DNA from: Nemertoderma westbladi
Taxonomy: Eukaryota > Animalia > Xenacoelomorpha
DNA: 39,848 nucleotides
Assembly (NCBI GenBank): GCA_032718475.1
Contig: JAUCBJ010006977.1
Location: forward strand, 1 to 39,848
Reading direction: 5' to 3'
Each line of letters begins with the position of its first letter. Position 1 is the stretch's first letter. Shown piece after piece: positions 3,454-39,773 of this stretch. The notes under the pieces were generated by a model. The model made no database searches and had not been told where the DNA came from. It saw only the letters and a list, made by a program, of their open reading frames with translations. Made by a program: the position numbers and the translations under genes.

Positions 3454-3753
3454 TTAATTCCACGTTTCTTCTCTCCATTCTTTTTCTGTGCCCCGTGCTT
3501 CTTTCGGCCTTTCAATGCTAGGGTTTTCAGTTTTGATTTGTACTTCTTTTTTTCTTTTTCTGTAAATTGACTTTCCATTTCGATACTGACAGTATCTTAA
3601 ATGTTATTGTTTTTCTGCCTCAGGAAAGTAATGGCATTGAACGTTCGGACAATTTTTTCACCCGGTTGATTTCTTCTACATTTTCTTAAGTGTCTGATAA
3701 ATCTTCCACATGAATTCTGTGGTATGTTTCATATGAGCATATTATATACTCAT
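3454..3753 (-). pseudogene. GTSF1: GTSF1/Asterix-like double CHHC zinc-finger pseudogene (not in ORF track)
   Basis: Manual translation across two frameshifts and one stop: EYIICSYETYHRIHVE/RFIRHLRKCRRNQPGEKIVRTFNA/HYFPEAEKQ*HLRYCQYRNGKSIY...EWREETWN*. Collinear with the intact ORF at 34102-34389, including the terminal WxEExW(D/N). Confidence 0.85.
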
Positions 3754-5970: not shown

Positions 5971-6006
5971 TATAATAGGCCTAAATAGACCAAATCTCCA
6001 GAAATT

Positions 6007-7244: not shown

Positions 7245-8779
7245 ATACAGATGCGACTGTTGCCGGACCGAATGGTTGCCATCTGGCTTCATGCTACCAC
7301 GGGGGAACCGGATTTACATACGTAAACGAGCCAGCCAATTATCGATGTGGAGACTCGCTCACCATGTCTTCCTTCGCTGAACACGAATGCTATACCCGAC
7401 TTTTTTCACGAAAACGTAAAACTCCTACCATCAACAACTCACAATCATACTCCATCAACTCTACCCCGGAACAAGTCGGCGGTGGCTCCAATAACGAACC
7501 ATCAACATCGCGAGATTATAACTATATTTCCCCAAACAATCCTTTTCAACCTACCACCAACAGAACCACGCACGGACGTTTATTTACATATACCATTGAT
7601 CTCTCAGAAACAAGACTTGACTTTGAACAAACTTTAAACGAGAATTTTTAGCATATTCAAGAACATGTTAGTAATCATTTAAATACTGCTTTGGGATATT
7701 TTTTAAGAGTCTGGTTAACTATCAATATCGTAATGGAACGCGAAACCAGTGATTTAGTGATTTGGCCGCAGTTAATTATAAAAAAGTTGATAGAAAAAAA
7801 AGAATATCAAAAGAATATCAATGTATAATCCTTTCTTAAACATGTTTGATTTTTCCAATTTAAGTTTTCCAGTGGACAGAGTAACTGGTATTCCCCAGTT
7901 TCTGAAAGCAAACCCTTCATACTGTATAAACATTTTATATTGGAGTAATACAGAAGAACTATCCATTCTAAGTCTACCAGATAGCACGCACTGTTCCAGT
8001 AAAACTGTAATAAATTTACTATTTATAGAAGCCACAACCAAAAACCCCACCCACTATGTAGCTACTACTAATATAGATAGATTAATAAATACAAAAGCTA
8101 CTTCAATGGCTAACAAGAAGCACTGCAAATGCTGTCTCAGAGCAGAGCCGTTAAAACTGTCAACTGGTTGGAAGAGCATCGAGAATGCTGCTATACGGGT
8201 AAACGGTAACTCGAGTATATGCCCGAAAATCTACACACTCCACAACAAATCTACAAACACACACGCCCCCATGCAACTCACTAGTAGCCAACAAATTGAC
8301 TTTAATAATGCTATGCAATGCTACGTCTGCAACTGTAACTTAACCCCTGATTCTCACAATCTAAACCTCAATGAAAGTCTCACTACCAAAGTCCACGATC
8401 ACGACCATTATAGCGGGGAGTATCGAGGGGCTTCTTGAGTTGGCTGCAATAGGAAACTATCACTAAAACGAAATAATTGTTATATTATATTTCATAACTT
8501 GAGAAAATTCGATATGCATTTACTGTTAAAAAAGAAGGAATGACTGATAGGTCTAGAACACACTGGAAAATGACTATAATACCAAAAAACACCGGAACCT
8601 ATATTCACCTTAAAGTTAGCTTTCCAATCGATCAAAGTACACCAATAGCCAAAGCTAAAGAAAGTATCTTCATTAATTTTCTATATTCCTATCAATTTAT
8701 GGCTGCCAGCCTAGATAATCTCAGTAGCTATCTCACTAAAAATAATAGTAACCTAGTGAAATATCCCGTTTTGCGATAA
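7032..8779 (+). pseudogene. Decayed, internally deleted 5' part of a Polinton-type pPolB gene (inverted paralog of ~17940-20121)
   Basis: ORF pieces 7150, 7364, 7821 and 8540 closely match the gene at 16132-20121 (CPICDKE..SD.L..IKIH; EQVGGGSNNEPSTSRDYN; DHDHYSGEYRGAS; FL.SYQFM) with frameshifts and two large deletions. Confidence 0.9.
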
Positions 8780-9131
8780 AGAAACTGTTACACTGCAGCT
8801 ATAATATATTATAATACCACAGTTTAAGTTTACCAGTTTATGGGTTTATATAAACGACTCACCAAACGTAGGCTACACGGTAGCTACACGGTAGGCCTAC
8901 TGTATATCAATATAATAGGGCTAATACACTATCGAGTACCGGTACCATGAATGTTTTGTTGCAGACAGTTTTGATTCCGGATACTTCACTCAATTCTCAG
9001 CTATAAAATCGAAACATGAACCCAAAATGAGTATTCTTTTTTTTTGTTACAGAGTTGAAGGTAAAACTTGATAAATGATTCAGGTTTTCGTACTGTAGTA
9101 GAAATGTTCCTCTCGCGGCCCCTTAGTCTTC

Positions 9132-9325
9132 GTTATTCAATGGCGCCACTCTGGCTACCATTGAATAACATTGGGCAATCATTATCTCGCCTGATGTGAC
9201 GTCATCAAAGCTGCTCTCTGATTGGTTTAATTATACAGTCTTTTCTCCCTCCTGTTCCCTGATTGGCTAACCCATTCTAGCCCCCTCTATAATAGCCCCC
9301 TTTCACCACATTCCCAATCATTGTC
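9132..9325 (+). promoter_or_regulatory. Putative Pol II promoter with upstream hairpin
   Basis: Hairpin GTTATTCAATGG...CCATTGAATAAC (9132-9169), CRE TGACGTCA (9197-9204), two ATTGG boxes and TATAAT at ~9288, upstream of ORF 9414. An inverted paralog lies at ~22285-22460. Confidence 0.45.
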
Positions 9326-9413
9326 TCTTTGTTTTCCTGAAAAGTTTTATTTATTTTCGTAAAAGTATTTATTTATTTTTATTTCCTAAACGAGTTACCG
9401 GTATACAATCACG

Positions 9414-9857
9414 ATGGCACATTCAGAAATCAGCTATTCAAGCAACGATCTGGTTTGCAACGAAAATCAGTTTATGCTACAAGACAACTCGTTTGGTCTA
9501 TATTTCGATTCGGCGAACAAACTCTTCCCGTTAACGATAAATACAACCTTACACCAACCCATCCCGATTCCGGCAAACTACGCGCACTTTATTTTCCGTG
9601 CCTGCTACGAACTTCACAATGACAACACTATTACCCTATCCAACAGCTTTACCATCGCGCGCCTTTTCGAATTACGAAAACGTTCTCTCAGAGAAGGCAT
9701 CTTTCTCCCGCAGCAAACACACCTTAATCTATTTCACCCCCCAAGAAAAGGTTATCTTAACAAACTATTAAAGAGAAAATTATCGCAGCCATTAATAGTA
9801 TCGGACCCTAAAAGGGTTAAACCAAACGTTACTCTCGGAGACCAGCAACCCTATTAA
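9414..9857 (+). CDS. Hypothetical 147-aa protein with basic NLS-like C-terminus
   Basis: ATG in good context, LKRK and PKRVKP motifs, AATAAA ~20 nt after the stop, promoter-like upstream region. Confidence 0.5.
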   Translation: MAHSEISYSSNDLVCNENQFMLQDNSFGLYFDSANKLFPLTINTTLHQPIPIPANYAHFIFRACYELHNDNTITLSNSFTIARLFELRKRSLREGIFLPQQTHLNLFHPPRKGYLNKLLKRKLSQPLIVSDPKRVKPNVTLGDQQPY

Positions 9858-14044: not shown

Positions 14045-14686
14045 TTATAAATGTATTTACCCCCACATTATTTATTACTATTAGGTCTATCTATTCAAGA
14101 AATTATATGTTTTTATAATATACTTTGGAAAATTAGTCGACTAAGTCATAATTTTTAAAACTTTAAATACGGGTTGAGTTATTTTATAAAGTTAAGAAGA
14201 ATGAACCAATAGAGGGAGCCTGAAGTCTAATCTCTTGGTCTTTACTCACGTTAACTCCCAAGGTTGCATACTATCACTATAGCCGGGGGAGTCAAAGCTA
14301 GAGTGTATGCTAGAGTTAACCAAGAGCTAGGAAAAAGAATAATGCTCTTCTAGGGTGCAAACTCACGACCTTCTAATTAGAAAACTAAGCAAATGATCAG
14401 CTTGAAGGTCTTAGACCCTTAATCGGAGGCATCGAGCAGCCAATGAGAGAGCGGATGCGAGTACAGTGGTAAAGCCCATCCATAGTGAGATAGCGTTGCA
14501 CTAGCTCTCAAGGATAGTTATACTCACCATTCAAATATCCCTCGCAAACCAGATTCCCCCAACATCTAAAGTATTCCACTTCAATGCAAAATATATAATG
14601 CAATATAACTCGAATATTTCTGTTTTTTATAATATAAATAATAATTGTAGCATAAATTTATAATTTCACATAAATATAATGTGAAA

Positions 14687-15530
14687 ATTCACTTTAACAT
14701 AGAGTAACTAACTAAACATGTAATAGGATATACAGATGGTCATAGGTTCGACCCCTTCTCGTATCCCATATTATGGAAAATATAAAAAGTAAACATAGAA
14801 TAACTAGAGTAACTAAACTAAACATAAAATAGGATGAACAGGTGGTCACATGTTCGACCCCTTCTCGTATCCCGTTTTATGGAAAATATAAAAAGTAAAC
14901 ACAAAATAGGATACACAGATTGTCACGGGTTCAATCCCTACTCGCGACCAATATAAAACCAACACAAAATAAGTTAAACATAGAATAACTAGAGTACCTA
15001 AACTAAACACAAAATAGGATAAACAGATGGTCACAGGTTCGATCCCTACTCGTATCCCATTTTATGGAAAATAAACAGGAGGTCATAGGTTCAATCCCTA
15101 CTCGCGACCATTATAAATCCAACACAAAATAAGTTAAACCAGGGTTCGAATCCTAGTCATGAAAATATAAAAAGTAAACATAGAATAACTAGAGTACCTA
15201 AACTAAACGTAAAATAGGAAAAACATATGCTCACAGGTTCGATCCCTAATCGTATCCGTTTTATGGAAAATAAACAGAAGGTCACGGGTTCAATCCCTAC
15301 TCACGACCATTATAAAACCAACACAAAATAAGTTAAGCCAGGGTTCGAGTCCTACTAATGCAATAATAAAAAGTAAACATAGAATAACTAGACTAAACTA
15401 AACATAAATTAGGAAAACATAGGTCACATGTTCGACCCCTACTCGTATCCGTTTTATGGAAAATATAAAAAGTAAACAGCTGGTCACGGACTCAAACCCT
15501 ACTCACGGAAAAATAAAAACCAACACAAAA
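14687..15530. repeat. Composite tandem repeat (~60-180-bp units)
   Basis: Recurring GGAAAATATAAAAAGTAAACA, CATAGAATAACTAGAG and GGTCACAGGTTCGATCCCTACTCG. One unit is the reverse complement of ~11451-11519 and the equivalent part of the second direct repeat. Confidence 0.85.
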
Positions 15531-15572
15531 TAAATAATATTGTAAACTTTCATGTATACCATAGTAAATAAA

Positions 15573-22127: not shown

Positions 22128-22512
22128 CTAATTGGGAGTTGTCACCCAGACAGTCTGGCGCCAATGACACCCAATGACACCCATAGGGTGATAATTGGGT
22201 GTCATATGACACCCAATGGGTGTCAGTTAGGTCCAACTGTCGCAAAGCCGCCCAAGACCCTACTACTGAGGGAGAAAAGAATGTAAAATTAAACCAATCA
22301 GAGAGCAGCTTTGATGATGTCATAGGAGGCGAGATAAAGTTTGCCAATGTTATTCAATGGTAACCGGAGGAACCAGCTTTGATGATGTCATACGAGGCGA
22401 GATAAAGTTTGCTGCCCAATGTTATTCAATGGCAGCCAGAGTGGCGCCATTGAATAACAATGACAAAGGGTAGGATACAATAGAGTAATTAGTTACCAGT
22501 AAGGGAGCTGTA

Positions 22513-23260
22513 AGTAGTGAGGGATTGCCCCGCTTTGGACCAGCCCCCCCCCCCCCCCCCCCCCCCCACTCGCTCCCTATGGCTCCTTATGGCTCCTATA
22601 GCTCCCATTGGCTCCCATAGCTCCCATTGCCCATAGCTCCCATTAGCTCCCTATGGCTCCTTATGGCTCCTATAGCTCCCATTGGCTCCCATAGCTCCCA
22701 TTGCCCATAGCTCCCATTGCCCATAGCTCCCATTGCCCATAGCTCCCATTAGCTCCCTATAGCTCCCATTAGCTCCCTATGGCTCCTTATGGCTCCTATA
22801 GCTCCCATTGGCTCCTATAGCTCCCATTGGCTCCCATAGCTCCCATTGCCCATAGCTCCCATTAGCTCCATTGCCCATAGCTCTCATTAGCTCCCTATGG
22901 CTCCTTATGGCTCCTATAGCTCCCATAGCTCCCATTGCCCATAGCTCCCATTAGCTCCCTATGGCTCCTTATGGCTCCTATAGCTCCCTTGGCCATTGCT
23001 CCCATTAGCCGAGTCTCCCCATTGCTCCCATTAGCTGAGTCTCCCCTTTGCTCCCATTAGCCGAGTCTCCCCATAGCTCCCATTAGCCATTGCTCCCATT
23101 AGCCGAGTCTCCCCATTGCTCCCATTACAAATGTCTCCCTATAGATCGCATTACCTAGAGTGTCCCCATTGCTCCCATTACAAATGTCTCCCTATAGTTC
23201 GCATTACCTCTATTGCTCCCATTACACGAGTCTCCCCATTGCTCCCATTACAAATGTCTC
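22513..23260 (+). repeat. Left terminal inverted repeat
   Basis: Poly-C tract then arrays of GCTCCCATT/GCTCCTAT variants; reverse complement of ~36729-37336. Confidence 0.92.
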
Positions 23261-23832
23261 CCTATATATCGCATTACCCAGAGTCTCCTCATTGCTCCTA
23301 TTACAAATGCTCCCATTACCTCACCATTGCCAACTCTCTCTATATCCTATTACTTCAAATGTAACGTAACCATTGGTCAAACAAGCAGCCAATAAGGTGC
23401 ATGTAACGCGTTACACTGGATGAATCACCAACCAATCAATGTTAAGGAACACCTACATTGTCAGACATGGCGTCTCATTGTCTTGTCATTCATTATTATC
23501 ATTGACGTCATACCATTGCCTACTATAGGCCAAATTATACGCTCTGGTTGACTATGCTCGCAATCGTCCATGAAATTGATTTAATGTTTCATTGCCTTGC
23601 AAACTTTACCTAAATCAAATTTATCCGCCAAAAACATCGGAGCTGATTAGCTGTCAACACAAGCCACCTAGTCGTGATTGGTGGACATATTTGGATATAA
23701 ATTGGACAGAAATAAAAAATTATCATTTATCCATATTCTATGTGATGTTAACATTGTATTTAATTGTATTGCTATATTTTATTTAGTTAATTTTCTTGTA
23801 AACTTTATTCTAAACTTTATTCGCTCAAAATA

Positions 23833-24720
23833 ATGGCCCTATCTAAGAAGATATCTGTTAGCAACCAACCATTCAAAGTAGCCAGTCAGGATTTTTCTAT
23901 GATAATCCAACCTCACAAGTATGCAGTGTTTACACAAGAACAAGATTCATTTGTACTCAACATGATGAACACACGGTTTCTACTGCAAACAGTTATAGAG
24001 AATAAAATTGGTGAATTCAAGAAATCCTATATTGTTGTTAACTTGATGTCTGATGGAGCTCATGTTGAGAAAGAACATTCTCATTTTTTCATACCCCGTT
24101 ACTTCTTAGAACAGCTAAAGCTCCTACATTCTCATATTTCGCAATTATTGAAAACACGCCTATCATTTTTGAATCATGATCGTTATGTTCTTCTCTCAGA
24201 CCCTTTAGTGGGCTTTGTAACAAAATACAAAGGGAAAGCCTATGTTGGTCTTTGGGAATATGAAACATCTTATCCTCAGTCAGTATCAATTGATTTCTAT
24301 TCTGGCTTGAATTTCACTCCTGATGAGCTGGCCAGAGTAGATTTTGACCATGATAATTCTGAATATAGTTTATCCACTCGGTTAATGGCTAAGAAACAAA
24401 ATAAAGATCTTATTGTTAAACATAATATGTCAGGGAATGCAGTTGTCCTATCAAAAGATGATCTTGAAACAGTTAAATTTCTTGAAAATAAATGTCGCAA
24501 TGCACACTTTGAAGATAACAATCGTTTTATGTTACTAGAAGAAACTTACGAAGAAGATGATTTCGGTGAAACACCTCCACCTACACCTCCCTATTATACC
24601 CACACTAAAGAAGGACGAAACCTTTTAATTAATGAATCTGGTAAAGATGTACCTAAATGTTCCGCTAACTTGAAGCGCGATATTGTAGAAATATGCAAGG
24701 CTAGCACGCGGGCAACTTGA
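23833..24720 (+). CDS. Polinton accessory ORF, possibly PC4-like ssDNA-binding
   Basis: Intact 295-aa ORF. FVTKYKGKAYVGLWEY...SGLNFTPDEL resembles PC4 VSVRDFKGKVLIDIREY...KGISLNPEQW; the functional call is tentative. Confidence 0.55.
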   Translation: MALSKKISVSNQPFKVASQDFSMIIQPHKYAVFTQEQDSFVLNMMNTRFLLQTVIENKIGEFKKSYIVVNLMSDGAHVEKEHSHFFIPRYFLEQLKLLHSHISQLLKTRLSFLNHDRYVLLSDPLVGFVTKYKGKAYVGLWEYETSYPQSVSIDFYSGLNFTPDELARVDFDHDNSEYSLSTRLMAKKQNKDLIVKHNMSGNAVVLSKDDLETVKFLENKCRNAHFEDNNRFMLLEETYEEDDFGETPPPTPPYYTHTKEGRNLLINESGKDVPKCSANLKRDIVEICKASTRAT

Positions 24721-25216: not shown

Positions 25217-25660
25217 TTAATCCTTTTGAACAATTTTTGCATAGTTACGAAACCAACATGCAAGTATCTTTTCATTTAAAAACAGATTATCAGTAAATAT
25301 CCCCAATGGATTATGTATATAAGGTCTTTTAGTCAAATAAAAAATCACATACCCTCCACATGTAGTAAACTTTGGGTGTTGGTAGATACGCCTTGTTCGT
25401 CTCCATGTCATTGTATTATTATTCAACCAAGTTTCTATTTGAGGTGGAGGATACTGACCAAATGAGTCAAAATATTCAGCTCTGTGATTGTTACCATAAA
25501 TACAGACCCAATGGGAACCAGGTAAATGACTGCCTTGGGTATTACTTATTAAACCAAATTCCTGACCTTTATTCCCCAACTTCGGTATTTGGTTACTGGC
25601 AAAGCAACCTAAATAGTGTTTACCAATTTCAAAGTTCTTTAAGTCTCTAGAATTTAGCAT
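25217..25660 (-). CDS. Adenain-family (C5) cysteine maturation protease
   Basis: NT...PGSHW, EYFDSFG and YQ.....TCG: catalytic H/D/C plus oxyanion Q. Confidence 0.93.
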   Translation of the reverse strand: MLNSRDLKNFEIGKHYLGCFASNQIPKLGNKGQEFGLISNTQGSHLPGSHWVCIYGNNHRAEYFDSFGQYPPPQIETWLNNNTMTWRRTRRIYQHPKFTTCGGYVIFYLTKRPYIHNPLGIFTDNLFLNEKILACWFRNYAKIVQKD

Positions 25661-25663: not shown

Positions 25664-26912
25664 TTAGAATATGCGAACTTGTCCATCGAGACTGATTGTC
25701 ATCATTGCATCATATCCACATAATAGAATCACATTTACTGTCTCAGGTAAACCAGTCCCAAAATGCAATTTCAATATTCCATTGGAAAATTGTTTTGGTT
25801 GAAATTGGTCAATTAAGTCGTTATTAGCTGTAAGGTCCCATATCACCCACGGATAGTAGTTTTTGTAATCATCAGGTTTAATAGCATTTCCTGATCCAAG
25901 CATATAATCATTCAAAGTCAATTGAAAGGCAAGGTATTCATTCATGAAAGTATCGTTGGGAAAATTAGGTTTAAATGCCCTTCCTCCAATTATTTTCCCA
26001 TCAACATTCAATTCGGCATGATTTATATTAAAATGATTAAATAATAAAGGGTCGGATGTAAATGATCCACTGTAGGCTAAATTGGTCTGCATTGCCATGA
26101 CAACAAATTTAGGTAAAGTACCTTGAAATGGGTCATTTCGGGTATGTGTGTTGGTTCCTCTTGCAATAGTAAATGTTGTAACAAGATGTTTGTTTAAAGG
26201 AAATTTAAAATCATCCTTTTGAAGACCCATTTGATGTGCTCGCATTATTTCACTATCTAGTTCATACCTAGTCACGTGACATACGGCATAGGTAATTTGA
26301 ACACGAGGGTTTGTTACATTACCATCAGATTTGATAAAAAATGAATTTGAATGACGTGTAAATCTAATTTTAATTGAAACACCAGGAGGAGTTGCTTTTC
26401 CTTGGGCAAAAATGTCACTAATTATAGGACCAACGATTTGACGCTTATGTTTATTAGGGGCAATAACATTAGCAACAGCAATTCATTCCATTTGTATCAC
26501 TTGGTTTAACGAATCCACCGGCTTGTAATGTTGTTTTCTTGAGATCATTGTCTGAGAATAAAATAACTTGGAATATACCTTTCTGTGCATAATGATTATT
26601 TGCCGTCTCAACTTCTTGATCATTAAGGAATACTTGTAGGTTACTAAATAGTGTATTAATAGGATAGTTTGTATGATGGACTAAAGCCTCCCCCTCACGA
26701 GCATCCCAGCCAACTTCATAATGAATTTCCAATAGCGTCTTATGCAGTGGCGTATAGAAGCGATCAGATGTCCCAAAATCGAATTCATTAATGAGTGAAC
26801 TCGCATGCAAAGGAGATATAAGGTGGACTTCCTGTACATGACAAGATGCAAATTCAGTTTGCGATAGTTTAGAATCAAATAGAGCAATTTCTCTTTTTGT
26901 TACAGTTGCCAT
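25664..26912 (-). pseudogene. Major capsid protein (double jelly roll), one frameshift near 26480
   Basis: NYPINTLFSNLQVFLND, then the frame of ORF 25664 is open upstream (GPIISDIFAQGKATPPGVSIKIRFTR) through GTLPKFVVMAM, AYSG...DP..F.HF and WDLT; adjacent to the protease. Confidence 0.88.
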
Positions 26913-26988: not shown

Positions 26989-27489
26989 TTATAGTCCTGT
27001 TTTTAAGACCTCTTTATAAATTTGTTTAGCTACTTTTCGTGTACTAGGCTTCATTCGAGAAGCTGCCTTAATTGCTATATGTTTTACTTTTTTTTTAATA
27101 AGTTTTTTTCCAGCTGGTATAACTGATTTTCGTACAAATTTTCCAACTTTAGGTATTGCTTTCTTTACAGCCACTTTAGCTATTGGCTTGGCTACTTTTA
27201 TAACTGTTCTTAATATGTTACCGAGAATACCCTTCCCTCTTTGGACATTGTATCTTCCATTAGGGAAGTAACCAATTGGTAGTGACTGACCTTTTCTAAC
27301 TCGTCCATAAATTCCAGGACTCAAACCACCTTTAAATACACCCAAGTGACTTCCACCTTTAAAAATTCCTAAATCTGCTCCACCAATCTGAGGCTTATTA
27401 TACAAATTGAATAAAGTATCTGATCTCATGCCTTGAAACTTATTATTATTATTATTATTATTATAAATATGATATGAAATAGAATTCAT
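26989..27489 (-). CDS. Basic Gly/Lys-rich virion core or membrane-active precursor protein
   Basis: QIGG and FKGG adenain-like cleavage motifs; QRGKGILGNILRTVIKVAKPI amphipathic basic segment; lies between penton and MCP. The real start may be the internal Met at ~27429. Confidence 0.65.
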   Translation of the reverse strand: MNSISYHIYNNNNNNNKFQGMRSDTLFNLYNKPQIGGADLGIFKGGSHLGVFKGGLSPGIYGRVRKGQSLPIGYFPNGRYNVQRGKGILGNILRTVIKVAKPIAKVAVKKAIPKVGKFVRKSVIPAGKKLIKKKVKHIAIKAASRMKPSTRKVAKQIYKEVLKTGL

Positions 27490-28166
27490 TAAATCTCCTT
27501 AAAATGTAGGGTTATAGTAGCATCACCATACTGGAAATGAATTGGATAGTTATTATCTGATCTTAGTAAAATTGTTAACTGTTTTATTTCAGCGGCTTTT
27601 TTCACACGTTTATAATGAATATGTTCGCATTCATGTTGAATAATATCACCATATCTACCCACAATAGGTATTGTTCTTAGAAGTTGCATATGATAATTAT
27701 TAACTTCTTGCGGTTCTATGAAATTACAAATTATATTTATATTAGGTTCAACCTTATCTATTGGACCGCATATATTTATTGGTATATAATTAGACCTTTT
27801 ATATGCTCTACCATGTTTAATAATTGTATATCCTTGATAACCAAATTGTTCATCCGTTTGACATATATATCCAGCACGAATTTTGTGTTCTTCTACTCCG
27901 AAATAGTTTATTAGATCACCTCCAATGAATAATTTCTTGTTGTTATTTTTAAATTTAATGTCAACCTTTCTTGTATTTACATTGTAATAAAACTGAAATC
28001 GTTTTCCTTGTCGACTATTATTATAGTAATTTATAACAGAAACAATATCCGTGAAGGAGCCTTCTGGTAATTGTGTTATGATAGGAGGTTCTCTGATCGA
28101 TTCTGATATGATAACTGTGTTATTATTTGAAGTATGTAGCGAAGAATCATATGTAATTTCTGATAA
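27489..28166 (-). pseudogene. Minor capsid (penton) protein, N-terminally truncated
   Basis: Frame is open from ~28166: LSEITY...LPEGSF...ICNFIEPQEVNNYHMQLLRTIP...IHFQYGDATITLHFK; no start codon because of the deletion junction with pPolB. Confidence 0.8.
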
Positions 28167-28169
28167 CTT

Positions 28170-31100
28170 AGAGAGTCTGTATATATATCAAAGTGCTTAT
28201 GGTTTGGCTTTGATAAAAGTTGCTCACATTGCTTCTTATTATTGCACAATCTAAAGTTAAGACGGTTCCTCAGGTTCTCCATTGTTTTACCAAATAAAGA
28301 ATTGTTTAAAAGTTTATAAAAGTCTTTTTCAAATTTATTTTTAGCATTTTTACGTTTATCAATATTGAAATATATATAATCACGAAATATATAACCTTGC
28401 TTGAATTTATATAATCTGTGAATTTTTGTAACTTTCATTCCATGACTTAAATAAAACTTAAGCAGTTCTAAATGGAGACCATATGCAACCTTATTAAACT
28501 GATTAAGCAAAAGTTTTTCTGTAGAGTGGTATTTCTTAGCCTTAGGGTTAGCATCTGTAGAGGTTGCGGTCTTATTGTGTTGATTCCATAGTTCTTTTTG
28601 ATAATTGCTCAAAAATTGTTCATTTGGTTGTAATTTTTCAGGACAAAATGGCAGATCTGCTGTTATGTCATGTATGTTATCAGGGTAGTCTAAGTCAACA
28701 ACTGCCAGATATCCAATATCACCAGAAGTGTCTAAGCTCATCAAATCAATATGATCAATATTAGTCACTTGTAAATAGTTAGAGCAAGGGAGTTTCTCTG
28801 CTAAACATCCTGCATATAGAGAATTAAAGTCAATATTTAATAAATGACACTCTGGTTCTGAACTCTTATAATTATCAGTGCCTGGAATATTTGCCTGTAT
28901 ATAGTGAGTAGAAACATATGTCATCCCACCTCGTATGGACTTTTCTATCTCTTCATATGTATCTTGATTACTTAAGAGATGCAATTTCGTTTTTGTAAAC
29001 TTTAATGCTGCATCCCAAGTCATGGAAAAAGCTGTTAGGAAGTGGGCAGGATCTAAACCATAGTTAGAAAAACATAGTTGTCGAAAATTCTCAAAAATAT
29101 CTGCTAGTAAACAAGTATCAAGGTGTAAGTACGCTATTAAATAATCAAATAATGTATTACACTTGAACAATGACCAAGATTTCTTTGCCCTATTATAGTC
29201 TTCCGGTTCACAGTGACTTAACATTAATTTACTATAGAATTGTTCTATAGGTGGGAGGTGGGTCTGATCTAGTTTGTCGAGACTAGTTATTGCTTCATAT
29301 GGGAAGACTCCCTTGCTCTTTAATATATCATATGTTACAGCTGGGTATAAGGTTCTCATCTGTTGAACTGTATGAGGAAGTACAGATTCTAAGTTATTGA
29401 TGTCATCTGTTAAAAAATAAGCAAGTTGGCCTAAAGAATGGGCCATAAAATTAAAGCTGTCTATAAATTGTATATGAATTTGATTCCTGTTGCTTTTTGG
29501 TTCATTAACTTTGTATGGAATTGTACCTTTTATGGTTATATACTTTTCGGTTGTCTGTGCTATTGTCTCCATTTTCCAGTCTGAATGCTGATTATTTGCA
29601 AATGCTTGGGTTAAAACCAGATGGCTGTCAAAACCCTTAAAGTTATGAAATACAACTGTCATATGATTTCTTTTTAAACTCAATTTTCTATTGCATTTAC
29701 GACAAGCAGCGCCCCTGTACTCCCCTGTATAATGATTATGCTCCATAATTTTATCTGTATCTTGCTCTGTATTATTTGATGTTTGTTGATTTTCTACAGT
29801 TAATTTTATATCACATAGGTAGCATTTTTTTGATGAATGAAAACTTTCCATTTGTGTCCTACTTAGTATTATCTTTTTCTTTGTATTTTCTAGTGACCAA
29901 GTATAAAGTTCCCGGAAATGATTTTCTAGAGATGTGAGGAATTCGTCTATGCAGTTAGTTGTAGGTGTTTGTTTGAAAGTTGCTAAGAATTGTTTTGGAG
30001 GGCTAACTAATTCTTTATATGGGATCGTGAGGTAGCTGGCAGCGGATGGTAGCAATATATTAGTATACTTAACATTATCATTTGATTTAATAATGCATTC
30101 AAAGTCCGCATATGTAATGAATGGTAACGGTATTGTTCTATCAAATCTTGTGAATTCTACCTTTAGCTGATGCTGAGTTGGCATTGATGTTATCTGTGGT
30201 TTTCCCTGGTAGCAAAGTATTCTATGTTGTTGAAGAGCATTGCTAGTATAATAACCTCTGCAACACCGCTGACATCTATTACAATGGGTATCAGTCCCAT
30301 CCCCTACCGTACTGTTCAGTAGTCTATTTAAATTGCTGATTGCACAGTAGTGATTTGGTTGGCCATGTCGTTTTTCTATTAATAATAAGTTTAGTAGTTC
30401 TTTTCCCTCTACCTTTGAACCTTCAGGCTGTCGTAATATCTCTACTTTACTTTCAGTGTTATACAAGAGTAAATTTATAGCTATATTTTTGTTTTTTCTT
30501 TCAAATTTGTCAATATCATCATTACAATTAGTTGGAAACCCTATATCACTAAAATCAAAATAGTTTACCCATTGGCTATACAAACTTTTTCTATTTTTAT
30601 GACTTGTTATTTGTTTATGGAATTTTGCACAAATGCAGGCATCTCTAAAACATTCAGATTGGTTTCCACCTTCTATATTAATTATACAGTGTTTATCTCT
30701 TAAAGTTTTCGGGATAAATCCTCCATGACCCTTTAAATATATGTCTTTACTATAGCTACCTACTCTTACTTCAATATGTGACATCCCTATTATATACCAG
30801 CCAGAACCACGAGTAATAAAACTCGCAACCTGTTCTAAAATATAGGATATACTATCCCCAAACCAATAGTTAAATTCAGATTCGCTATTAATTATATTAT
30901 CATTATTCCCTCTAGAATTAAAAACAAATGTACCCCTATCCCTGACTCCATCACCATCCTCCCTCTCCATATCTATATATACCGATAACGTCATTCTAAT
31001 AAATCTATGTGATCCTATTGTTTCTGTATCATGCATGATATTTGTATTATTTGACATTGTAAAAATATTACGTACATTGTTTTCATTGTGTTGCAGAACC

Positions 31101-32111
31101 CCCTCAATGTCCGGGTTGTGACTGTTTATATCACATCTAAAGTACTTTAAACAGCCATCATGGCAGTTTCGCCGCTCTACAAAGCTGTCTTCATCCTCCT
31201 CACGATCATGGATATGAACTGGTGACTGTGACATTGGCATCAGCGAAGATGATGATGATGATGATAATTGGGGATTGCTGCTCTGAGCAGTTGTCTGAAC
31301 AGGAATCATCACTTGTGGCTCACTGACTATAGGTGGCGTAGCAAACTCTACTGGTTGTCTCATCATCATATCAGATGGTTGAGTTATTGCTGTAGATGGT
31401 ATAGTGTATGGGACTGGTGGTGGTAAAGATAATGATGATGCCGACATTGATGATGATGATGATGGTAATGGTATCAGTTGTGTCATAGATGTTGATGTCA
31501 GTGGTATCACTGATGGTACTACTAGAGCCGAAGCTGACATTGGTGGTGGTGGTGGTGATGGTGGTGGTGGTAGCTGTGGAGATGGCGGTGGTGGTGGTGG
31601 CGGTGGCAGTGGAGGAATCATAAACCAAGGTTCAATCATGTCATATGTTGATGGATAGTTTGAAAACAGATTGATGTACTGCGCTGATGTGCTAGGAATC
31701 ACCACTTTGCGGCTCTCTGTCTATAGGTGGTGTAGGAAACTCTACTATCGGTGGTCTCATAAGCAGAAAAGATGATGTAGTCATTGGTGGAGGTTGTATA
31801 CTGTATGGGATTGGTGGCATACTCATTGGTGGGGGCATGGTGTAATGAATTGTTGGCATATAATTGGTATCCAGAGTTGAAATCTTAGTAGGACTAGTTG
31901 ATTGTTTAAAACGCTTGGAAGGAGAATGGTCTGGAGTGGTTATGATTTGTTGATCGCAATTGTGACTTACGTAGTTTTCTAGCGTTAATATATTTAAACA
32001 TGTTGGGCATTGTTGTGTAGAGGATGGTTCTCGGATATGCTGTGTACGTAAATGTCTGGTGTAATTTTTCTTTAAGGTTGATATGGGACATAAGGCGCAT
32101 TGTCGATTCAT
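28170..32111 (-). pseudogene. pPolB lineage B: +1 frameshift at ~31707, C-terminus deleted
   Basis: Zn-finger ORF 31692-32111 plus ORF 28076-31705 with YADFE, HNFKGFDSH, FIDSF, KGVFPY, DFNSLY and KLLNNSLFGKT; motif C (DTDS) is missing. Confidence 0.93.
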
Positions 32112-32329
32112 TTCTGTAAAAAATTAGAAATGAAAATGAATGATAAAATGAAATTGATGAATGAATGAAACAAAATGAAAAAATATAAAATGAAATGATG
32201 TTGCATTCGATATCTTATATATTTTTTTTTATATTTTATTTCGATTTAAGTCATTTATATTATGCTACCTTAATATATAAAATATGAGAAAGAGAAAGGC
32301 TAGGCGATCCTTAGCAATAGAAAAAAACA

Positions 32330-32700
32330 GTATGGTACGGTACAGTGCACAGTATGGTACGGTACAGTGCACAGTATGGTACGGTACGATACTGTGCACT
32401 GTATGGCACGGTATAGTGCACAGCATGGTACGGTAGAGTACATTGCACAGTACGGTATGGTATGGTACAGTGCACAGTACGGTACGGTACGGTATGGTAC
32501 ATTGCACTGTATGGTACATGTACTCCTGTATTGCACCTGTAGTGCACCTGTATAGTACGGTACGGTACAGTGCATCTGCACGAATTATTGTACAGTGCAC
32601 ATGAACAGTGCACCTTACAGTTTGGTACACAGCGCATAGTATGGTATGGTACAGTCGTACAGTGTACCTGTGTACAGTAAGGACGATTCACGGTACCTAA
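32330..32700. repeat. Degenerate pentanucleotide simple repeat (TACGG/TACAG/TATGG)
   Basis: Directly visible; explains the overlapping low-complexity ORFs here. Confidence 0.85.
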
Positions 32701-33250: not shown

Positions 33251-33552
33251 GTTCAACCCCCGGTGACGCGCTCCCATTTTTTTCCACTTCTGAACAAACC
33301 CATAATATTACACCTTTAATTACAGTTGCAACAGCTCATCTCCAATTTATTTAATTATTATTATTAATATTATTCGTATAAAACTCACTTGAATTATAAT
33401 AATTTTCTAGTAATTATCGTTCTGAGGTATATCTTGCTTTCCTTCTTCGTCTACACAACGCAAAATGATGAATTGACAATGATCAACAATTAATGGTTTT
33501 TGATAATAATAATAATAATAATATAAGGCTAAACAAAAACAATGAAAACTTT

Positions 33553-33980
33553 TTTACCTGTAAGTCGATAACAGTTAATACAATGATTATATTTTTGTAT
33601 GCGTCTTAAATACAAAATGAAATTTTAATGGAATTTTTGTGGAATTTTGATGGAACTTTCTGGAGAGCCAATCGCGTTGTACTTTTGGGCGGAGAAAATT
33701 TGAATCAGGCGAAATCTTAAACCCTGTGAAAAGGATTAAAACATTTTGTGGATGAATGCGATCATTTTCAACCAGAGCGTATAATTTGCTTAATAGTAGT
33801 CAATGGAGTAATGCTTAGGATAATAATGAATGATGTGTCACCACGGCACCAATAGTAATTATGTATTTTTCATTGACCAGGATAGGTCTAGACAGATAAA
33901 CTCGTTTAATAATGCACAGCAATGAGGTGTATTTTCTCTAGACATAACTTTTTCTTGAACTTTTCGCCACCATATACAAT
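33553..33980 (-). promoter_or_regulatory. Duplicated upstream/leader region; copies at 34456-34516 plus 35821-36185, and a partial inverted copy at 36461-36529
   Basis: Near-identical TTTACCTGTAAGTCGATAACAGTTAATACAATGA... blocks; contains CCAAT and a CAG|GTAAA donor-like site on the minus strand. The duplication is seen directly; promoter function is inferred. Confidence 0.6.
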
Positions 33981-34101: not shown

Positions 34102-34389
34102 TCAATCCCACACCTCTTCTCCCCACACCGCCAGACATTCAATTTCTTCTCCTTTCTTCTCCACTTTTTTCTCTTCTTTTAATTTCTCAAAAATGGAGCT
34201 CCTATTTCTGTATTCACAAAATTGTAGATGATGTTCCCTTTCGGCTTCTCTAAAGCTATGCGCAACTTCAAAGGGACACTGTACCATTTTTTGGCCAGGA
34301 AAGTTCTTGCGGCATTTTCTTAGATGTTTGACGTATTTCTCCGAATGAATCCGGTGCGTGGCATCATAGGGGCAAATAAAGTACTCCAT
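34102..34389 (-). CDS. GTSF1: GTSF1/Asterix-like protein (two CHHC U11-48K-type zinc fingers, acidic Trp tail), intact, inside the Polinton
   Basis: CPYDATHRI......KHLRKCRKN and CPFEVAH.......EHHLQFC match GTSF1 CPYDKNHQI...YHLIKCRKN and CPFNARH...SHHISSC; ends WGEEVWD. Confidence 0.9.
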   Translation of the reverse strand: MEYFICPYDATHRIHSEKYVKHLRKCRKNFPGQKMVQCPFEVAHSFREAEREHHLQFCEYRNRSSIFEKLKEEKKVEKKGEEIECLAVWGEEVWD

Positions 34390-34516
34390 AGTAACAAAAA
34401 GACAAATTTAGTAAGATTTACTTTAAAAAAAAACTTTGAAAAACTTCACTTAATGTTTACCTGTAAGTCGATAACAGTTAATACAATGATTATATTTTTG
34501 TATGCGTCTTAAATAC

Positions 34517-35820
34517 ACGAAGTGGGGCCTTCGCGCAGCACGTGACTTAAATTTAATTTAAGTACTAATTCGAAAGTATTACTGTATTAGCAAATTTTAA
34601 GCAGATTTCGCCTAATCACTTTTTACCTCTTTCATTTCTATTCAGACATTTCTGACTCTAGCGGTATAGTGAGAACTGAAGATGGATTAGGGTCTCCAGC
34701 CCCACAAAGACACAGCCTATGGATGAATAGTACATACGTACATCGGCCAAGTTTCATCTTGAATAACGGATAACGAAATGAGAGACGGATCTCACTTTCA
34801 GAAATTTCGTCGTATAGCGGCAGACCGATTAAATCTCCCCCCCGCCCCACAAAGACGCAGCATGTGGTCCAGAATATATGGCAAGATTCAGCTTAAACTG
34901 ATAAAAATCAATGAGACGGGAGAATCTATTCACTTTCAGGCATAAAGTAGTCCTATAGCGGGTGACTGTTGAACTGATTTTCAACAAAACAAATTTTCAA
35001 CTTGGCAGCTTTAAATTCGACAAAGTTATAAGCATGTCAATATCATAACGACGACAACGATTTCACTTTCAGACATTTGGCCCTCTAGCGGCAGACTGGA
35101 GAACTGCAGATGGATTCGCCTCCTTTGAAAGTCACAGCTAATGGTCTAATACATATCTGCCAAGTTTCAGCTTAAACGGATTAAAAGCAAAGAAATGGGA
35201 GGGCATTTAATGTTTAGACATGTGGCCCTCTAGCGGGAGACCATTGCACTGATGGTGTCTGAAAGTCTCTCAAAAATCTCAACTTTAGCTCATATTGATA
35301 CCTACAAATTTTCAACTTGGCAGCTTTAAATCCGACAAAGTTATTAGCATGTCAAAATCGTAACGATGACAACGATTTCACTTTCAGACCTTTGGCCCTC
35401 TAGCGGCAGACTGGAGAACTGCAGATGGATTCGCCTCCTTTGAAAGTCACAGCTAATGGTCTAATACATATCTGCCAAGTTTCAGCTTAAACGGATTAAA
35501 AGCAAAGAAATGGGAGGGCATTTAATGTTTAGACATGTGGCCCTCTAGCGGGAGACCATTGCACTGATGGTGTCTGAAAGTCTCTCAAAAATCTCAACTT
35601 TTGCTCATATTGATACCTACAAATTTTCAACTTGGCAGCTTTAAATCCGACAAAGTTATTAGCATGTCAAAATCGTAACGACGATGACGACGACGACAAC
35701 GACGACGACGACGACGACGATGACGACAACGACGACGACGACGACAACTATTTGCATAAATTGACCCACCCCCTAACAGTGTCAATTCGCTAAGGCTCCG
35801 CCAACTTCGTGGCTCGCCCC
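34517..35820 (-). mobile_element. Non-autonomous Helentron-associated (HINE/DINE-1-like) insertion
   Basis: Interrupts the duplicated block (empty site AAATACAAAATG at ~33608). Short subterminal IRs GTGGGGC/GCCCCAC, (GAC)n microsatellite at ~35679-35747, and 315-bp internal tandem units at 34991, 35306 and 35621. Confidence 0.7.
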
Positions 35821-36600
35821 ACAAAATGAAATTTTAATGGAATTTTTGTGGAATTTTGATGGAACTTTCTGGAGAGCCAATCGCGTTGTACTTTTGGGCG
35901 GGAAAATTTGAATCAGGCAAAATCTTAAACCCTGTGAAAAGGATTAAAACATTTTGTGGATGAATGCGATCATTTTCAACCAGAGCGTATAATTTGCTTA
36001 ATAGTAGTCAATGGAGTAATGCTTAGGATAATAATGAATGATGTGTCACCACGGCACATGTATTTTTCATTGACCAGGATAGGTCTAGACAGATAAACTC
36101 GTATAATTATTTAATAATGCACAGCAATGAGGTGTATTTTCTCTAGACATAACTTTTTCTTGAACTTTTCGCCACCATGTACAATCATGTATTTTCCATT
36201 AACCGAGATAAGTCTAGACATATAAAATCTTATAATTATTTAATAAGAAATTGGATGCATCTGTCGTTTCTTTTCTTTGCTACATAACCTTTAATTTTAT
36301 TGATGGTCTTTAAACAACCAATGAATGAACGCTGAACTATACATGATCAGACTTGTTCCCCTAGTGACTTGTCATTCTGACGTAGGTTTAATTTTTCACT
36401 TGATTCAAACTTATCCCATCTAAAAAGTACAACCTGATTGGCTCTCGAGATCATAGCATCAAAAATTCCATTAAAATTTCATTTTGTATTTAAGACGCAT
36501 ACAAAAATGTAATCATTGTATTAACTGTTTTTACTGCCTTAGTAAAAAAGTAAAAAAGTCTTATTCTACAACACATTATTCTTAAATATAGAAACTAACA

Positions 36601-36693
36601 ATGGAGACGACATATCAAATATGTCCTTACAACCCTTCCCACAGAGTGGCCGATGCTCGAATGCTTAGGCATCTTATAAAATGTAGAAATCCG
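36601..36693 (+). pseudogene. GTSF1: Truncated GTSF1-like gene, first CHHC finger only (not in ORF track)
   Basis: METTYQICPYNPSHRVADARMLRHLIKCRNP, then runs into poly-G and the right TIR; stop at 36771. Confidence 0.8.
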
Positions 36694-36728
36694 GGGGGGG
36701 GGGGGGTGGAGTTTGTCAAAATGTGGAA

Positions 36729-37336
36729 TGGGAGCAATGGGGTAATGGGAGCTATAGGGAGACATTTGTAATGGGAGCAATGGGGAGACTCGTGTAATGG
36801 GAGCAATAGAGGCAATGCGAACTATAGGGAGACATTTGTAATGGGAGCAATGGGGACACTCTAGGTAATGCGATCTATAGGGAGACATTTGTAATGGGAG
36901 CAATGGGGATACTCGGCTAATGGGAGCTATGGGGAGACTCGGCTAATGGGAGCAATGGGGAGACTCGGCTAATGGGAGCAATGGCCAAGGGAGCTATAGG
37001 AGCCATAAGGAGCCATAGGGAGCTAATGGGAGCTATGGGCAATGGGAGCTATGGGAGCCAATGGGAGCTATAGGAGCCATAAGGAGCCATAGGGAGCTAA
37101 TGAGAGCTATGGGCAATGGAGCTAATGGGAGCTATGGGCAATGGGAGCTATGGGAGCCAATGGGAGCTATGGGAGCCAATGGGAGCTATAGGAGCCATAA
37201 GGAGCCATAGGGAGCTAATGGGAGCTATGGGCAATGGGAGCTATGGGAGCCAATGGGAGCTATAGGAGCCATAAGGAGCCATAGGGAGCGAGTGGGGGGG
37301 GGGGGCTGGTCCAAAGCGGGGCAATCCCTCACTACT
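36729..37336 (-). repeat. Right terminal inverted repeat
   Basis: AATGGGAGC arrays, poly-G, ends CCCTCACTACT. Confidence 0.92.
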
Positions 37337-37583
37337 GCTGTATACCCTAGGGCTAAATAAGGCTAAAGTCCATGGTTAGATGGTTCCAATAATGACAATT
37401 AGCAATGGTAAGTAATATAAAAACTAATTATTGGTAATTCTAAAAATATAAATCAATATATATAAAGTAAAAGTAATACAATTAATTAATTTAAAATAAA
37501 GTACAATTAATTAATTTAAAATAAAGTACAAATAAATAAAGTAAAAATAAATACAAATAATTAATTAAAATTAAATACAAATA

Positions 37584-38291
37584 CAGTACAGGCCACCAGA
37601 AAACGCAGATTTGTACAATTGTGAACACATTTTATCAAATGGGTACCAGTGTAATGTATTGTTGTTGAACGGGACAATTGAACATAATTGAACATAATTG
37701 AATTGGAAACAATCAAAATTTTTTCGCCAAAGGATACAATTGAATACTTTTGAAACGCTTAGTAATCGGGAAACTCTCTGTAGTTTGCCGCGAACTGTCA
37801 CTCACTGCAGCTGGAAATGCGATAAGGATTTTGTTTACCTTTATAGTGTGCGGTTAATAGTGTCTAGTAGGCAGGCCTATAGTTAGTGAGGTTAAGACAT
37901 CTTCTGGTGTTTCTCTGTGCCCTCTCGGTGTCAGACTAATGGCGCGACATCTCCCTGCACTAAATTAATTATTCAATGGTCTAGGCTCCTCCATCCACAT
38001 ACCCATCCACTCCCATACACTCCATGAACCTCCATGTGGTCTTGTATGTAGTTCTCTCTCTACCAATACAGCCCATGTCGGCAATGTTACGCCCTGGGGG
38101 CTCTCTCATCTACCTGATATCAGACATACAGGCGCACCGCACACAAAGCCTTTGTGGGTCCCAGCAAGTTATCCCCCTGCTGTGTGATCTAGAAGATAAC
38201 TCGCCATAACCTGACAATCTGATGACTTCAACAAATGTGTTCACATGTGATCACATTGGATGAAATCTGCTTTTTCTGGTGGCCTGTACTG
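37584..38291. mobile_element. MITE / non-autonomous Tc1-mariner-like element, ~29-bp TIRs, TA TSD
   Basis: TA|CAGTACAGGCCACCAGAAAACGCAGATTT ... AAATCTGCTTTTTCTGGTGGCCTGTACTG|TA; the paralogous block near 21900 lacks it. Confidence 0.88.
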
Positions 38292-39773
38292 TAAATAAGT
38301 ATTAATAAATAAAAGAGCCGCGGTGTCACTTATGACACCCTTTGGTCCTCTAGGTGACAGTTAGATCTCACTGATGACCATTGCGTGTCAGAGCGCTAAT
38401 CAGTTTGATTAATTAGGATAATCAATTAAACCATAATTATGAGTCATAAGACATCTAATTAGGGTTTAATTGTACTAATTAATTGATGACACCTGTCAAT
38501 TATGGTCTAATTAGCCGAATTTAGGTTAGCAGTTTGGGTAAATTTCTTATTTATTTATTTAAATTTCTTAAATACCGATTTTGGGATAGAAGTGCTCAAT
38601 TTTAATCTGTATCTGATAAACTGAGCCTCGTGCTGCGCTAAGGCCCCACGAACGTGTACTGTATAGTATAAGGGGTACACTCTCCAGTTTGCTGCATTCA
38701 GTTTTGGGGCTGATTTAGACAATCTAATTACAGACGAGCTAGTACAGGATGTGCAGGACAAATATAAATTTATGGACCACTTACAATACTTACAAACCCA
38801 TAACTGTATTACCGTGGGAGGGTGGTGTATAAAACACACCAATAAAAATGGCATACCAATTTGCCGATACACGAAATATCCCGACTCAGGAATATCAAAA
38901 TGTTTACCAAAAGAAAACCAAAACCTGTATTCCGTCCGATACCTTCCTGGAGTGGCTTTTAGATTTAGGATTTGGCCTTTCAAGGATAGCCTTCTATAAT
39001 AATATTGTTATGAACGAGAAATTCGTGCGGGGTCATACCAGTACGCTGCTGCTATGGCACACGAATTCTTTGTTCCAACAATACCTCGTATATTTGTACT
39101 AAAATGCGTGCCTGTACTAATGCTCAGGTATGCGCTATGCGATTCATGAAGGCATACTTACTCAAATATGGCGCGGGCAAGGAGGAACATCGGAAACATA
39201 TACTCGAAGAAACCAAAGTAGCGGGGGGAGTTTAGGGGGGAGGAACATTCTTAGGTCAACGAAAAAATTACAGGGGCGAGGATCGCAGAGGAAAAACGGG
39301 CAAAGAAGGGGTGCACAAGTCGGATCATCAGTGCAAATGAATTAATTTTTCATTCTTTAAAATTTTATTATTTTACCACCAGTGTAAAATTTCTCCACCT
39401 CCAAACTACATCCAAACTTGTATAGTATCCGATGATTCTAATTAGCCCACCCTTCCCCTACATATCAATCAGGAATGATCCGAATCTTAGAAATGGTGTA
39501 TTTATTGATAGCTAGAAGTATAATAGAAAATACAATATGTACTGTAGTACTTAATATAGAGATTAATACCTTTAAATGTAGCATCTATTAACTCATGTGC
39601 CTAGGACAGCACAAAGGACGGGTGGAAAGTACACATGTTACAAAGTCAGGGTATCTAGGGAAGCGGTATCTAGGGAAGCACGAACTTAAAGTACTGAGCG
39701 ATTACTAAGGATAAGTCAATGTGAGGTGTAAAAACGGTGTTGGTAAATAATAATTGTAATAATGGATTATACT

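What the first reader, a model, noticed from the sequence alone, without database searches (positions are those of the whole stretch)
34102..34389. Polinton/adintovirus carries an intact GTSF1-like gene: candidate anti-piRNA (PIWI) counter-defence
Seen: a compact, intronless 95-aa double-CHHC ORF with an acidic W-x-E-E-x-W-D end, lying between the TIRs of a TSD-flanked Polinton. Established: GTSF1/Asterix is a PIWI cofactor for transposon silencing; its fingers bind RNA and C-terminal tryptophans contact PIWI. Inference: an element targeted by piRNAs that carries a minimal copy (fingers plus Trp hook, ending right after the hook) may compete with host GTSF1. The position equivalent to mammalian R26 is His here, although that site may vary naturally in invertebrates. 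I know of no description of this cargo in Polintons but cannot search the literature.
Basis: partly seen in the sequence, partly recalled or inferred. Interest (0 to 1): 0.92.

Follow-up and report, generated by a model that had tools for sequence, protein, structure and literature searches.

The report
Polinton carries a PIWI cofactor gene
A virus-like DNA transposon (Polinton) in an animal genome carries an intact copy of GTSF1, a host protein that helps silence transposons; related copies differ mostly at silent sites and a distantly related Polinton carries a similar gene, so these elements likely keep it to interfere with that silencing.

Summary
Observation confirmed. The 95-aa intronless ORF (34102-34389, minus) is a GTSF1-family protein: two CHHC fingers, 3 of 4 RNA-binding basic positions, and a terminal Trp aligning with mammalian W107. 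It lies inside a defective Polinton with TIRs and a 6-bp TSD; no integrase or ATPase was found. New evidence that it is kept cargo: (1) a second, truncated GTSF1-like gene in the same element, both behind an upstream block shared with another element gene; (2) a decayed third copy near a second Polinton's polymerase; (3) several haplotypes in runs of two studies, with 23 of 33 listed coding differences silent; (4) a distant Polinton-type contig (pPolB 30% identical) with an 82-aa two-finger gene. Corrections: His at the R26 site is ordinary (Arg in only 30 of 125 homologs). The Trp hook is missing in some copies and in the second element, so the fingers are the conserved part. Short host genes also exist. 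Most multi-copy haplotypes could not be placed inside Polintons, and nothing here shows expression, PIWI binding or inhibition. Counter-defence is the best guess (about 45%). No description found in ten literature searches.

The parts
34102..34389 (-). Intact intronless GTSF1-like ORF, 95 aa: CHHC finger 1 (C6,H12,H22,C26), finger 2 (C38,H44,H54,C58), charged helix, acidic end with W89 and W94
36601..36696 (+). Second GTSF1-like gene, head-to-head with the first; one CHHC finger, then it runs into a G-run and the right TIR repeats (truncated in this copy)
   Evidence: zf-U11-48K E 8e-11
3457..3751 (-). Decayed GTSF1-like copy (frameshifts and a stop; 62% nucleotide identity over 216 nt; similar Trp end), outside the TIRs, about 3.3 kb from a pPolB fragment of a second Polinton family; no TIR or TSD ties it to that element
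22507..22512 (+). Left 6-bp target-site duplication
22513..23308 (+). Left terminal inverted repeat with internal tandem repeats
36721..37336 (-). Right terminal inverted repeat (shorter than the left)
37337..37342 (+). Right 6-bp target-site duplication
23431..23802 (+). Upstream block before the element's 295-aa ORF; homologous to blocks A and B (scores 152 and 151, shuffled maxima 52 and 48); likely a promoter module (inferred)
33548..33980 (-). Upstream block A; no intact gene behind it in this copy
34456..36185 (-). Upstream block B of the GTSF1-like ORF (94% identical to A), split by a high-copy host-repeat insertion at about 34518-35820
36198..36551 (+). Upstream block C of the second GTSF1-like gene (251 of 337 aligned bases match block A; score 211, shuffled maximum 46)
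23833..24720 (+). 295-aa element ORF, no family match
25217..25660 (-). Adenain-type cysteine protease
   Evidence: ASFV S273R E 1e-4; relative in L013 matches Peptidase_C5
25664..26912 (-). Likely major capsid gene, split into two frames; label rests on position, on a 471-aa relative in L013 and on recall, no Pfam or PDB match
26989..28187 (-). Basic core-like ORF and a likely minor capsid ORF without a start (labels recalled, no family match)
28076..31639 (-). Protein-primed PolB with endonuclease VII domain; lacks about 200 C-terminal residues present in the window's other pPolB

Best explanation
The ORF is a GTSF1-family gene inside a defective Polinton, its relatives vary mostly at silent sites, and the element likely keeps it as a competitor that would occupy the GTSF1 site on target-engaged PIWI and so would weaken silencing of the element. 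Shown: family identity, position, element-type upstream block, silent-site bias among related copies, and a two-finger gene in a second, distant Polinton-type contig. From published work: GTSF1 finger 1 binds RNA through basic residues, central aromatic residues bind PIWI, and PIWI-GTSF1-Maelstrom assembles on engaged targets. Inferred: capture from a host mRNA (no intron); expression from the shared upstream block; the fingers dock on the guide-target duplex and W94, where present, docks on PIWI; lacking the long tail of most host proteins, it would fail to complete the productive complex or to recruit later factors. The fingers, not the hook, are the constant part.
For: All 8 zinc ligands are present; K18, K25, K28 match mouse R29, K36, K39; W94 aligns with the mammalian D-E-D-W-D Trp. 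The model built on 99 sequences is confident over the fingers (pLDDT about 90) and its best PDB match is GTSF1 in the SIWI-piRNA-target-GTSF1-Maelstrom complex (9nhc_E, E 2.9e-4). In run X1 four contigs over 34228-34291 differ from the window at 0 of 141, 6 of 141, 9 of 99 and 33 of 187 bases. Of 33 listed coding differences 23 are silent, pN/pS 0.10-0.18, p about 1e-6 or lower; 21 of 26 in the fingers against 2 of 7 in the tail. Two paralogs in one element sit behind homologous upstream blocks, one of which also resembles the block before another element ORF. L051 (16,350-bp contig) has an intact pPolB, integrase, dUTPase, BIR protein and an 82-aa two-finger gene near its end; its pPolB is 30% identical to the window's. 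Only 3 of 86 homologs end within 5 residues of the hook; median tail 128.
Against: No test of binding, inhibition or expression. The protein keeps fingers, basic ridge and hook, the parts that activation needs in the passages read, so it could be an activator. Some copies lose codons 82-94 and one variant contig changes a finger-2 zinc ligand. A host gene between ordinary housekeeping genes is also intronless, 122 aa and ends at its Trp (L101). Contig depth over the ORF (about 1000-3200 in X1) far exceeds that over this pPolB (127.5) and capsid gene (161.5); depth is no copy number, but most haplotypes could not be placed in Polintons, and many have another upstream flank beyond 34458. The silent-site test uses the 40 best-supported of 74 rows, site by site. 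0 of 29 pPolB-related viral loci have the gene and only 1 of 92 GTSF-like metagenome loci had a pPolB (only 23 of 92 held 3 kb or more). A broad piRNA block is argued to be costly for germline elements (PMC6719617).
Confidence: 0.45

Rival explanations
1. PIWI-independent use of the fingers: the element keeps a small structured-RNA-binding protein (tRNA or duplex RNA) for its own gene expression or to shield its RNA, and the Trp hook is a leftover.
For: Constraint is concentrated in the fingers (21 silent of 26, against 2 of 7 in the tail). Hook-less forms occur among the copies and in L051. Mouse GTSF1 finger 1 binds tRNA (PMC9539491 section 19); nematode GTSF-1 switched partner away from PIWI (PMC13650160 passages).
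Against: The ORF and the decayed copy, 62% identical in DNA, both end at the Trp motif. None of the 33 listed substitutions falls in codons 89-95.
Confidence: 0.2
2. Passenger from an expanded host family: the host has many short intronless GTSF1 paralogs under selection, and this Polinton lineage picked some up without benefit.
For: ORF-like contigs outweigh this element's core genes several-fold and many have other flanks. Hosts often carry several paralogs. Short host forms exist. The decayed copy is not delimited by TIRs.
Against: Two diverged paralogs in one element, both behind element-type upstream blocks. A second, distant element with intact core genes has such a gene among its accessory genes. 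Contigs identical to the ORF have depth like the capsid contig (69.5 against 75.2 in X2; 253 against 161.5 in X1).
Confidence: 0.2
3. Working cofactor: the element supplies an active GTSF1 that boosts PIWI slicing, limiting its own copy number or suppressing competing elements.
For: Fingers, 3 of 4 basic positions and the W107-type Trp are kept. Self-control strategies are argued to be common for germline elements (PMC6719617 passages).
Against: The tail that is thought to set PIWI specificity is gone. The L051 protein lacks the hook and has only 2 of the 4 basic positions.
Confidence: 0.12
4. RNA-level attack as in TART-A/nxf2: element-derived piRNAs from the captured sequence target the host GTSF1 mRNA.
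For: Precedent in Drosophila (PMC7785250 abstract).
Against: The bias towards silent changes points to selection on the protein; silent divergence would erode RNA complementarity.
Confidence: 0.03

Closest known systems
GTSF1/Asterix (mouse GTSF1, PDB 6x46; silkworm GTSF1 in the SIWI-piRNA-target-GTSF1-Maelstrom complex, PDB 9nhb/9nhc)
   Same: Tandem CHHC fingers with the CPx4Hx9Hx3C spacing, basic ridge on finger 1 (3 of 4 positions), acidic Trp motif about 35 residues after finger 2 (homolog median 39.5).
   Different: 95 aa with no tail after the Trp; intronless, multi-copy, inside a Polinton; no homolog above 49% identity among the 150 best representatives.
Plant transposon anti-silencing factors (VANC of VANDAL, mir820 of rice CACTA, Athila6 tasiRNA), from PMC6719617 passages
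   Same: Accessory gene of a mobile element that would oppose host silencing.
   Different: Plant systems act on DNA methylation or by small RNA; here an animal element carries a protein homolog of a piRNA-pathway cofactor. That 2019 review knew no element-encoded factor against piRNA.
Drosophila TART-A capture of nxf2 (PMC7785250, abstract)
   Same: An element captured sequence of a piRNA-pathway gene.
   Different: TART-A holds a fragment acting through antisense piRNAs; here a whole reading frame varies mostly at silent sites.
Adintovirus accessory genes upstream of PolB (Oncoid, IAP, Bcl2; PMC8502044 passages)
   Same: Small host-like genes placed upstream of pPolB near the genome end, as in the window and in L051.
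   Different: GTSF, gametocyte and piRNA do not occur in that paper's main text; GTSF, gametocyte, U11-48K, CHHC and Asterix do not occur in its one supplementary file held as text.

Membership tests
GTSF1/Asterix | Two N-terminal CHHC fingers, CPx4Hx9Hx3C | tested here: met
   definition from PMC9539491 section 19
GTSF1/Asterix | Basic RNA-binding surface on finger 1 (mouse R26, R29, K36, K39) | tested here: met
   H15, K18, K25, K28; the R26 site is variable, Arg in 30 of 125 homologs
GTSF1/Asterix | Aromatic PIWI-binding motif after the fingers | tested here: met
   W94 aligns with the mammalian D-E-D-W-D Trp; W89 does not align exactly with the upstream mammalian Trp. Lost in some related copies
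GTSF1/Asterix | Long variable unstructured C-terminal tail (typical, not what the family's conservation rests on) | tested here: not met
   0 residues after the motif; homolog median 128, 3 of 86 within 5
GTSF1/Asterix | Binds and activates PIWI | not testable with these tools
U11-48K / TRM13 CHHC proteins | Finger within a larger spliceosomal or methyltransferase protein | tested here: not met
   two-finger 95-aa protein; U11-48K matches one finger only, E 0.005 against 1e-12 for GTSF1
Polinton/adintovirus | Long TIRs and 6-bp TSD | tested here: met
   6-bp TSD as the family mark is recalled
Polinton/adintovirus | Protein-primed PolB | tested here: met
   1522 homologs, best about 40% identical, named hits in coral, mollusc and insect genomes; C-terminal part missing in this copy
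Polinton/adintovirus | Adenain-type protease | tested here: met
Polinton/adintovirus | Major capsid protein | tested here: inconclusive
   related to a 471-aa ORF beside the protease in L013 (E 1e-25); no Pfam or PDB match
Polinton/adintovirus (autonomous) | Retroviral-type integrase and packaging ATPase | tested here: not met
   no match in the window with 324 ORFs from 29 related loci, among them 5 with an integrase-like and 4 with a Walker A motif; no Pfam match among ORFs tested. This copy is a defective derivative
Element-encoded anti-silencing factor | Measured relief of host silencing | not testable with these tools
   needs an assay

The most novel reading that the evidence does not exclude
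Polintons/adintoviruses have more than once captured the PIWI cofactor GTSF1, trimmed it to its RNA-binding fingers with or without the Trp hook, and use it as a protein antagonist of the target-engaged PIWI complex: the long-sought mobile-element-encoded protein inhibitor of the piRNA pathway in animals.
Probability: 0.4. Interest if true: 0.93.

Novelty: new variant of a known kind. Interest (0 to 1): 0.78.

Why it matters
The fast evolution of piRNA-pathway proteins is often blamed on antagonists encoded by mobile elements, but a 2019 review knew of none against piRNA (PMC6719617 passages). An intact GTSF1 homolog carried by two distant Polinton-type elements is a concrete candidate that existing PIWI slicing assays can test with one small protein. 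Even if it proves to be an activator or a plain RNA binder, an element keeping a cofactor of the pathway that silences it would be an undescribed kind of cargo.

Tried and rejected
No genome was held for the window, so copies could not be placed. Word-based protein search with the ORF alone found nothing; 0 of 10 window proteins are in the collection by exact sequence. Peptide-pattern scans with the ORF found no relative in viral or metagenome contigs; single-protein scans with the window's and L051's pPolB found none in viral contigs. The GTSF alignment was too variable for a locus scan. DNA patterns for CHHC fingers in viral contigs gave 4, 0 and 4 hits; none of the 8 matched the GTSF profile, so they are chance hits. 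PF05253 was in 0 of 6 held virus records; 23 of 29 loci were not held. No match in 50,697 phage records. No significant viral fold match (best E 0.04). Folding without an alignment failed (pLDDT 42). The tree of 181 two-finger segments (63 columns, quick method, 102 of 178 inner branches open) does not join the two element genes but does not rule out one origin, and L051 is on a long branch; no donor can be named. No RNA holder was listed for the stretch; the one RNA-guess run covered host repeats among its listed pieces. Run X4 had little cover of the element and X6 none; no conclusion drawn. No complex prediction was run, because no PIWI sequence was available. The rest of the L051 contig (bases 1-6079) could not be fetched, so its capsid genes and other end are unseen. 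De et al. 2025 was not held. Rejected: His at R26 as a sign of a crippled decoy; the decayed copy as proof of a second Polinton-borne gene (its upstream DNA does not match the shared block, and no TIR bounds it).

Full report
Observation. The ORF at 34102-34389 (minus) is open, starts with ATG, has no intron and encodes 95 aa. Pfam gives two zf-U11-48K fingers. PDB sequence search ranks mouse GTSF1 (E 1.2e-12) and the GTSF1 chain of 9nhb (E 1.3e-9) far above U11-48K. A search of 1.84 billion representatives gave 622 hits; the best 150 are 30-49% identical, and the named ones checked are animal proteins, mostly labelled GTSF1-like. A model built on 99 sequences is confident over the fingers and best matches GTSF1 in the SIWI-piRNA-target-GTSF1-Maelstrom structure.

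The element. TIRs run from 22513 to about 23308 and from 36721 to 37336 (602 of 613 aligned bases identical), with an identical 6-bp duplication outside each end. Between them lie an adenain-type protease, a split likely capsid gene (label partly recalled), and a pPolB whose closest relatives are about 40% identical and include coral, mollusc and insect records. The pPolB lacks about 200 C-terminal residues. No integrase or ATPase was found. It is a defective Polinton derivative that also holds host-repeat insertions. The GTSF1-like frame is intact while core genes are broken.

Is it real cargo? Four lines bear on this. First, a second GTSF1-like gene starts at 36601 on the plus strand and is cut off after one finger at the right TIR. 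Both genes lie behind homologous blocks of about 350-430 bp, and a further relative of that block precedes the element's 295-aa ORF at the left end (scores 110-211 against shuffled maxima of 44-52; block C alone does not beat its shuffles against the left-end block, 54 against 54). That the block is a promoter is inferred. Second, a decayed copy lies at 3457-3751, 62% identical over 216 nt, ending in a similar Trp motif, about 3.3 kb from a pPolB fragment of another family; nothing delimits the two as one element. Third, contigs of runs from two studies show several haplotypes of the ORF: in X1 alone, four contigs over one interval differ at 0 of 141, 6 of 141, 9 of 99 and 33 of 187 bases. That table showed the 40 best-supported of 74 rows; 33 of the 40 lie in the ORF, and 23 of these are silent, pN/pS 0.10-0.18 over four transition weights, p about 1e-6 or lower, p 2e-4 after dropping 6 silent CpG-context changes. 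Each site was classed alone against the window's codon. That locus, L051 (contig WNGJ01003415.1, 16,350 bp, of which 10,271 were held), has an intact 1242-aa pPolB, an integrase with chromodomain, dUTPase, a BIR protein and, near the contig end, an 82-aa two-finger gene whose best PDB hits are again GTSF1. Its pPolB is 30% identical to the window's and its finger protein 33%. The tree cannot tell one capture from two.

What limits this. Summed contig depth over the ORF in X1 is about 1000-3200, against 127.5 for this pPolB and 161.5 for the capsid region. Depth is no copy number, but it suggests that many haplotypes are not tied to near-identical copies of this element, and many contigs leave the window's upstream sequence at 34458. 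They may sit in other Polinton families, in small derivatives or in host arrays; without an assembly this is open, and the selection signal may partly come from host copies. Contigs identical to the ORF have depth like the capsid contig (69.5 against 75.2 in X2). 0 of 29 pPolB-related viral loci carry the gene, so it is not a general Polinton trait.

Functional anatomy. Mouse GTSF1 needs R26, R29, K36, K39 for RNA binding and W98, W107, W112 for tight PIWI binding (10.1101/2021.05.04.442675, passages). The ORF has H15, K18, K25, K28. The first site is not diagnostic: Arg in 30, His in 7 of 125 two-finger homologs, while the other three sites are basic in 118, 123 and 101 of 125; the silkworm protein has Glu there. 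W94 aligns with the conserved acidic Trp motif, found in 89 of 125 homologs. The hook is less constant than the fingers: 21 of 26 finger differences are silent against 2 of 7 in the tail, a contig in X2 and X3 replaces codons 82-94, and L051's protein stops soon after finger 2.

Mechanism. PIWI, GTSF1 and Maelstrom form a complex on engaged targets (PMC13269885 and PMC13618286, passages), and the C-terminal region is thought to set PIWI specificity. My best reading (0.45) is a competitor: expressed from the element, it would dock by its fingers on the guide-target duplex and, where present, by W94 on PIWI, without the tail, and so would lower productive silencing. Every step after identity and selection is inferred. 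Rivals: PIWI-independent RNA binding (0.2), passenger from a host family (0.2), working activator (0.12), piRNA attack on host GTSF1 mRNA (0.03). That the gene is element cargo kept by selection, whatever it does, I put at about 0.8.

Literature. Ten full-text searches showed no paper on GTSF-like genes in Polintons or viruses in their listings. GTSF1 with Polinton gave 1 review (listing only); gtsf with maverick gave 4, of which I read passages in two, where the terms are unrelated. Seen: PMC9539491 passages and section 19; passages of 10.1101/2021.05.04.442675, PMC13269885, PMC13650160, PMC6719617, PMC11512509, PMC9808576, PMC13618286, PMC8502044 (plus a term search of its one supplementary file held as text, 0 hits; figures not seen); abstract of PMC7785250. 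Most subscription papers, Repbase entries and GenBank annotations were not searchable, and supplements of other Polinton surveys may label such genes.

Verdict. A real, well-supported observation, strengthened by a second paralog, a silent-site bias and an independent element; the anti-PIWI function is plausible and directly testable but unshown. New variant of a known kind (element capture of a host defence gene); interest 0.78.

Noticed in passing
window:15693-16094 (minus): 134-codon frame with a weak TATA-binding-protein match (Pfam TBP E 0.005, below cut-off) directly after the second family's pPolB; possible TBP-like cargo.
   Followed up: partly
window:16132-20121 (minus) and 6940-8776 (plus): A second Polinton pPolB family in two broken copies (78-90% alike in DNA), 36-50% identical in protein to the focal pPolB. 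The window is a cluster of element remains.
   Followed up: partly
window:4103-5971: Tc1/mariner-like DNA transposon (label recalled) with 201-bp inverted repeats and a broken transposase, between the decayed GTSF1-like copy and a pPolB fragment.
   Followed up: no
window:32762-33282: Near-perfect 250-bp-arm palindrome inside the Polinton; very high contig depth, so a host repeat.
   Followed up: no
window:34047-34138: A contig in X1 and X2 repeats this 92-bp stretch (end of the ORF and 3' flank) head to tail.
   Followed up: no
window:2619-3250, 5933-6680, 14684-15538, 32305-32660: Tandem arrays (101-bp unit rich in CCAAT motifs; 68-bp; about 200-bp; 22-bp) beside or inside element remains.
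   Followed up: no
window:13151-14041 (plus): Reverse transcriptase fragment (RVT_1 E 8e-14).
   Followed up: no
L051:8-2605, 8743-9521: This Polinton-type contig also has an 865-aa fibre-like ORF with repeated stalk motifs, a dUTPase and a single-BIR protein.
   Followed up: no
L101:7248-7616 (minus): Intronless 122-aa host GTSF1-like gene ending at its Trp pair, among housekeeping-like genes.
   Followed up: partly
window:21733-22133 and 37412-38521: The host flanks on both sides of the Polinton share repeats (82-86% alike), so it inserted into repeated DNA.
   Followed up: no
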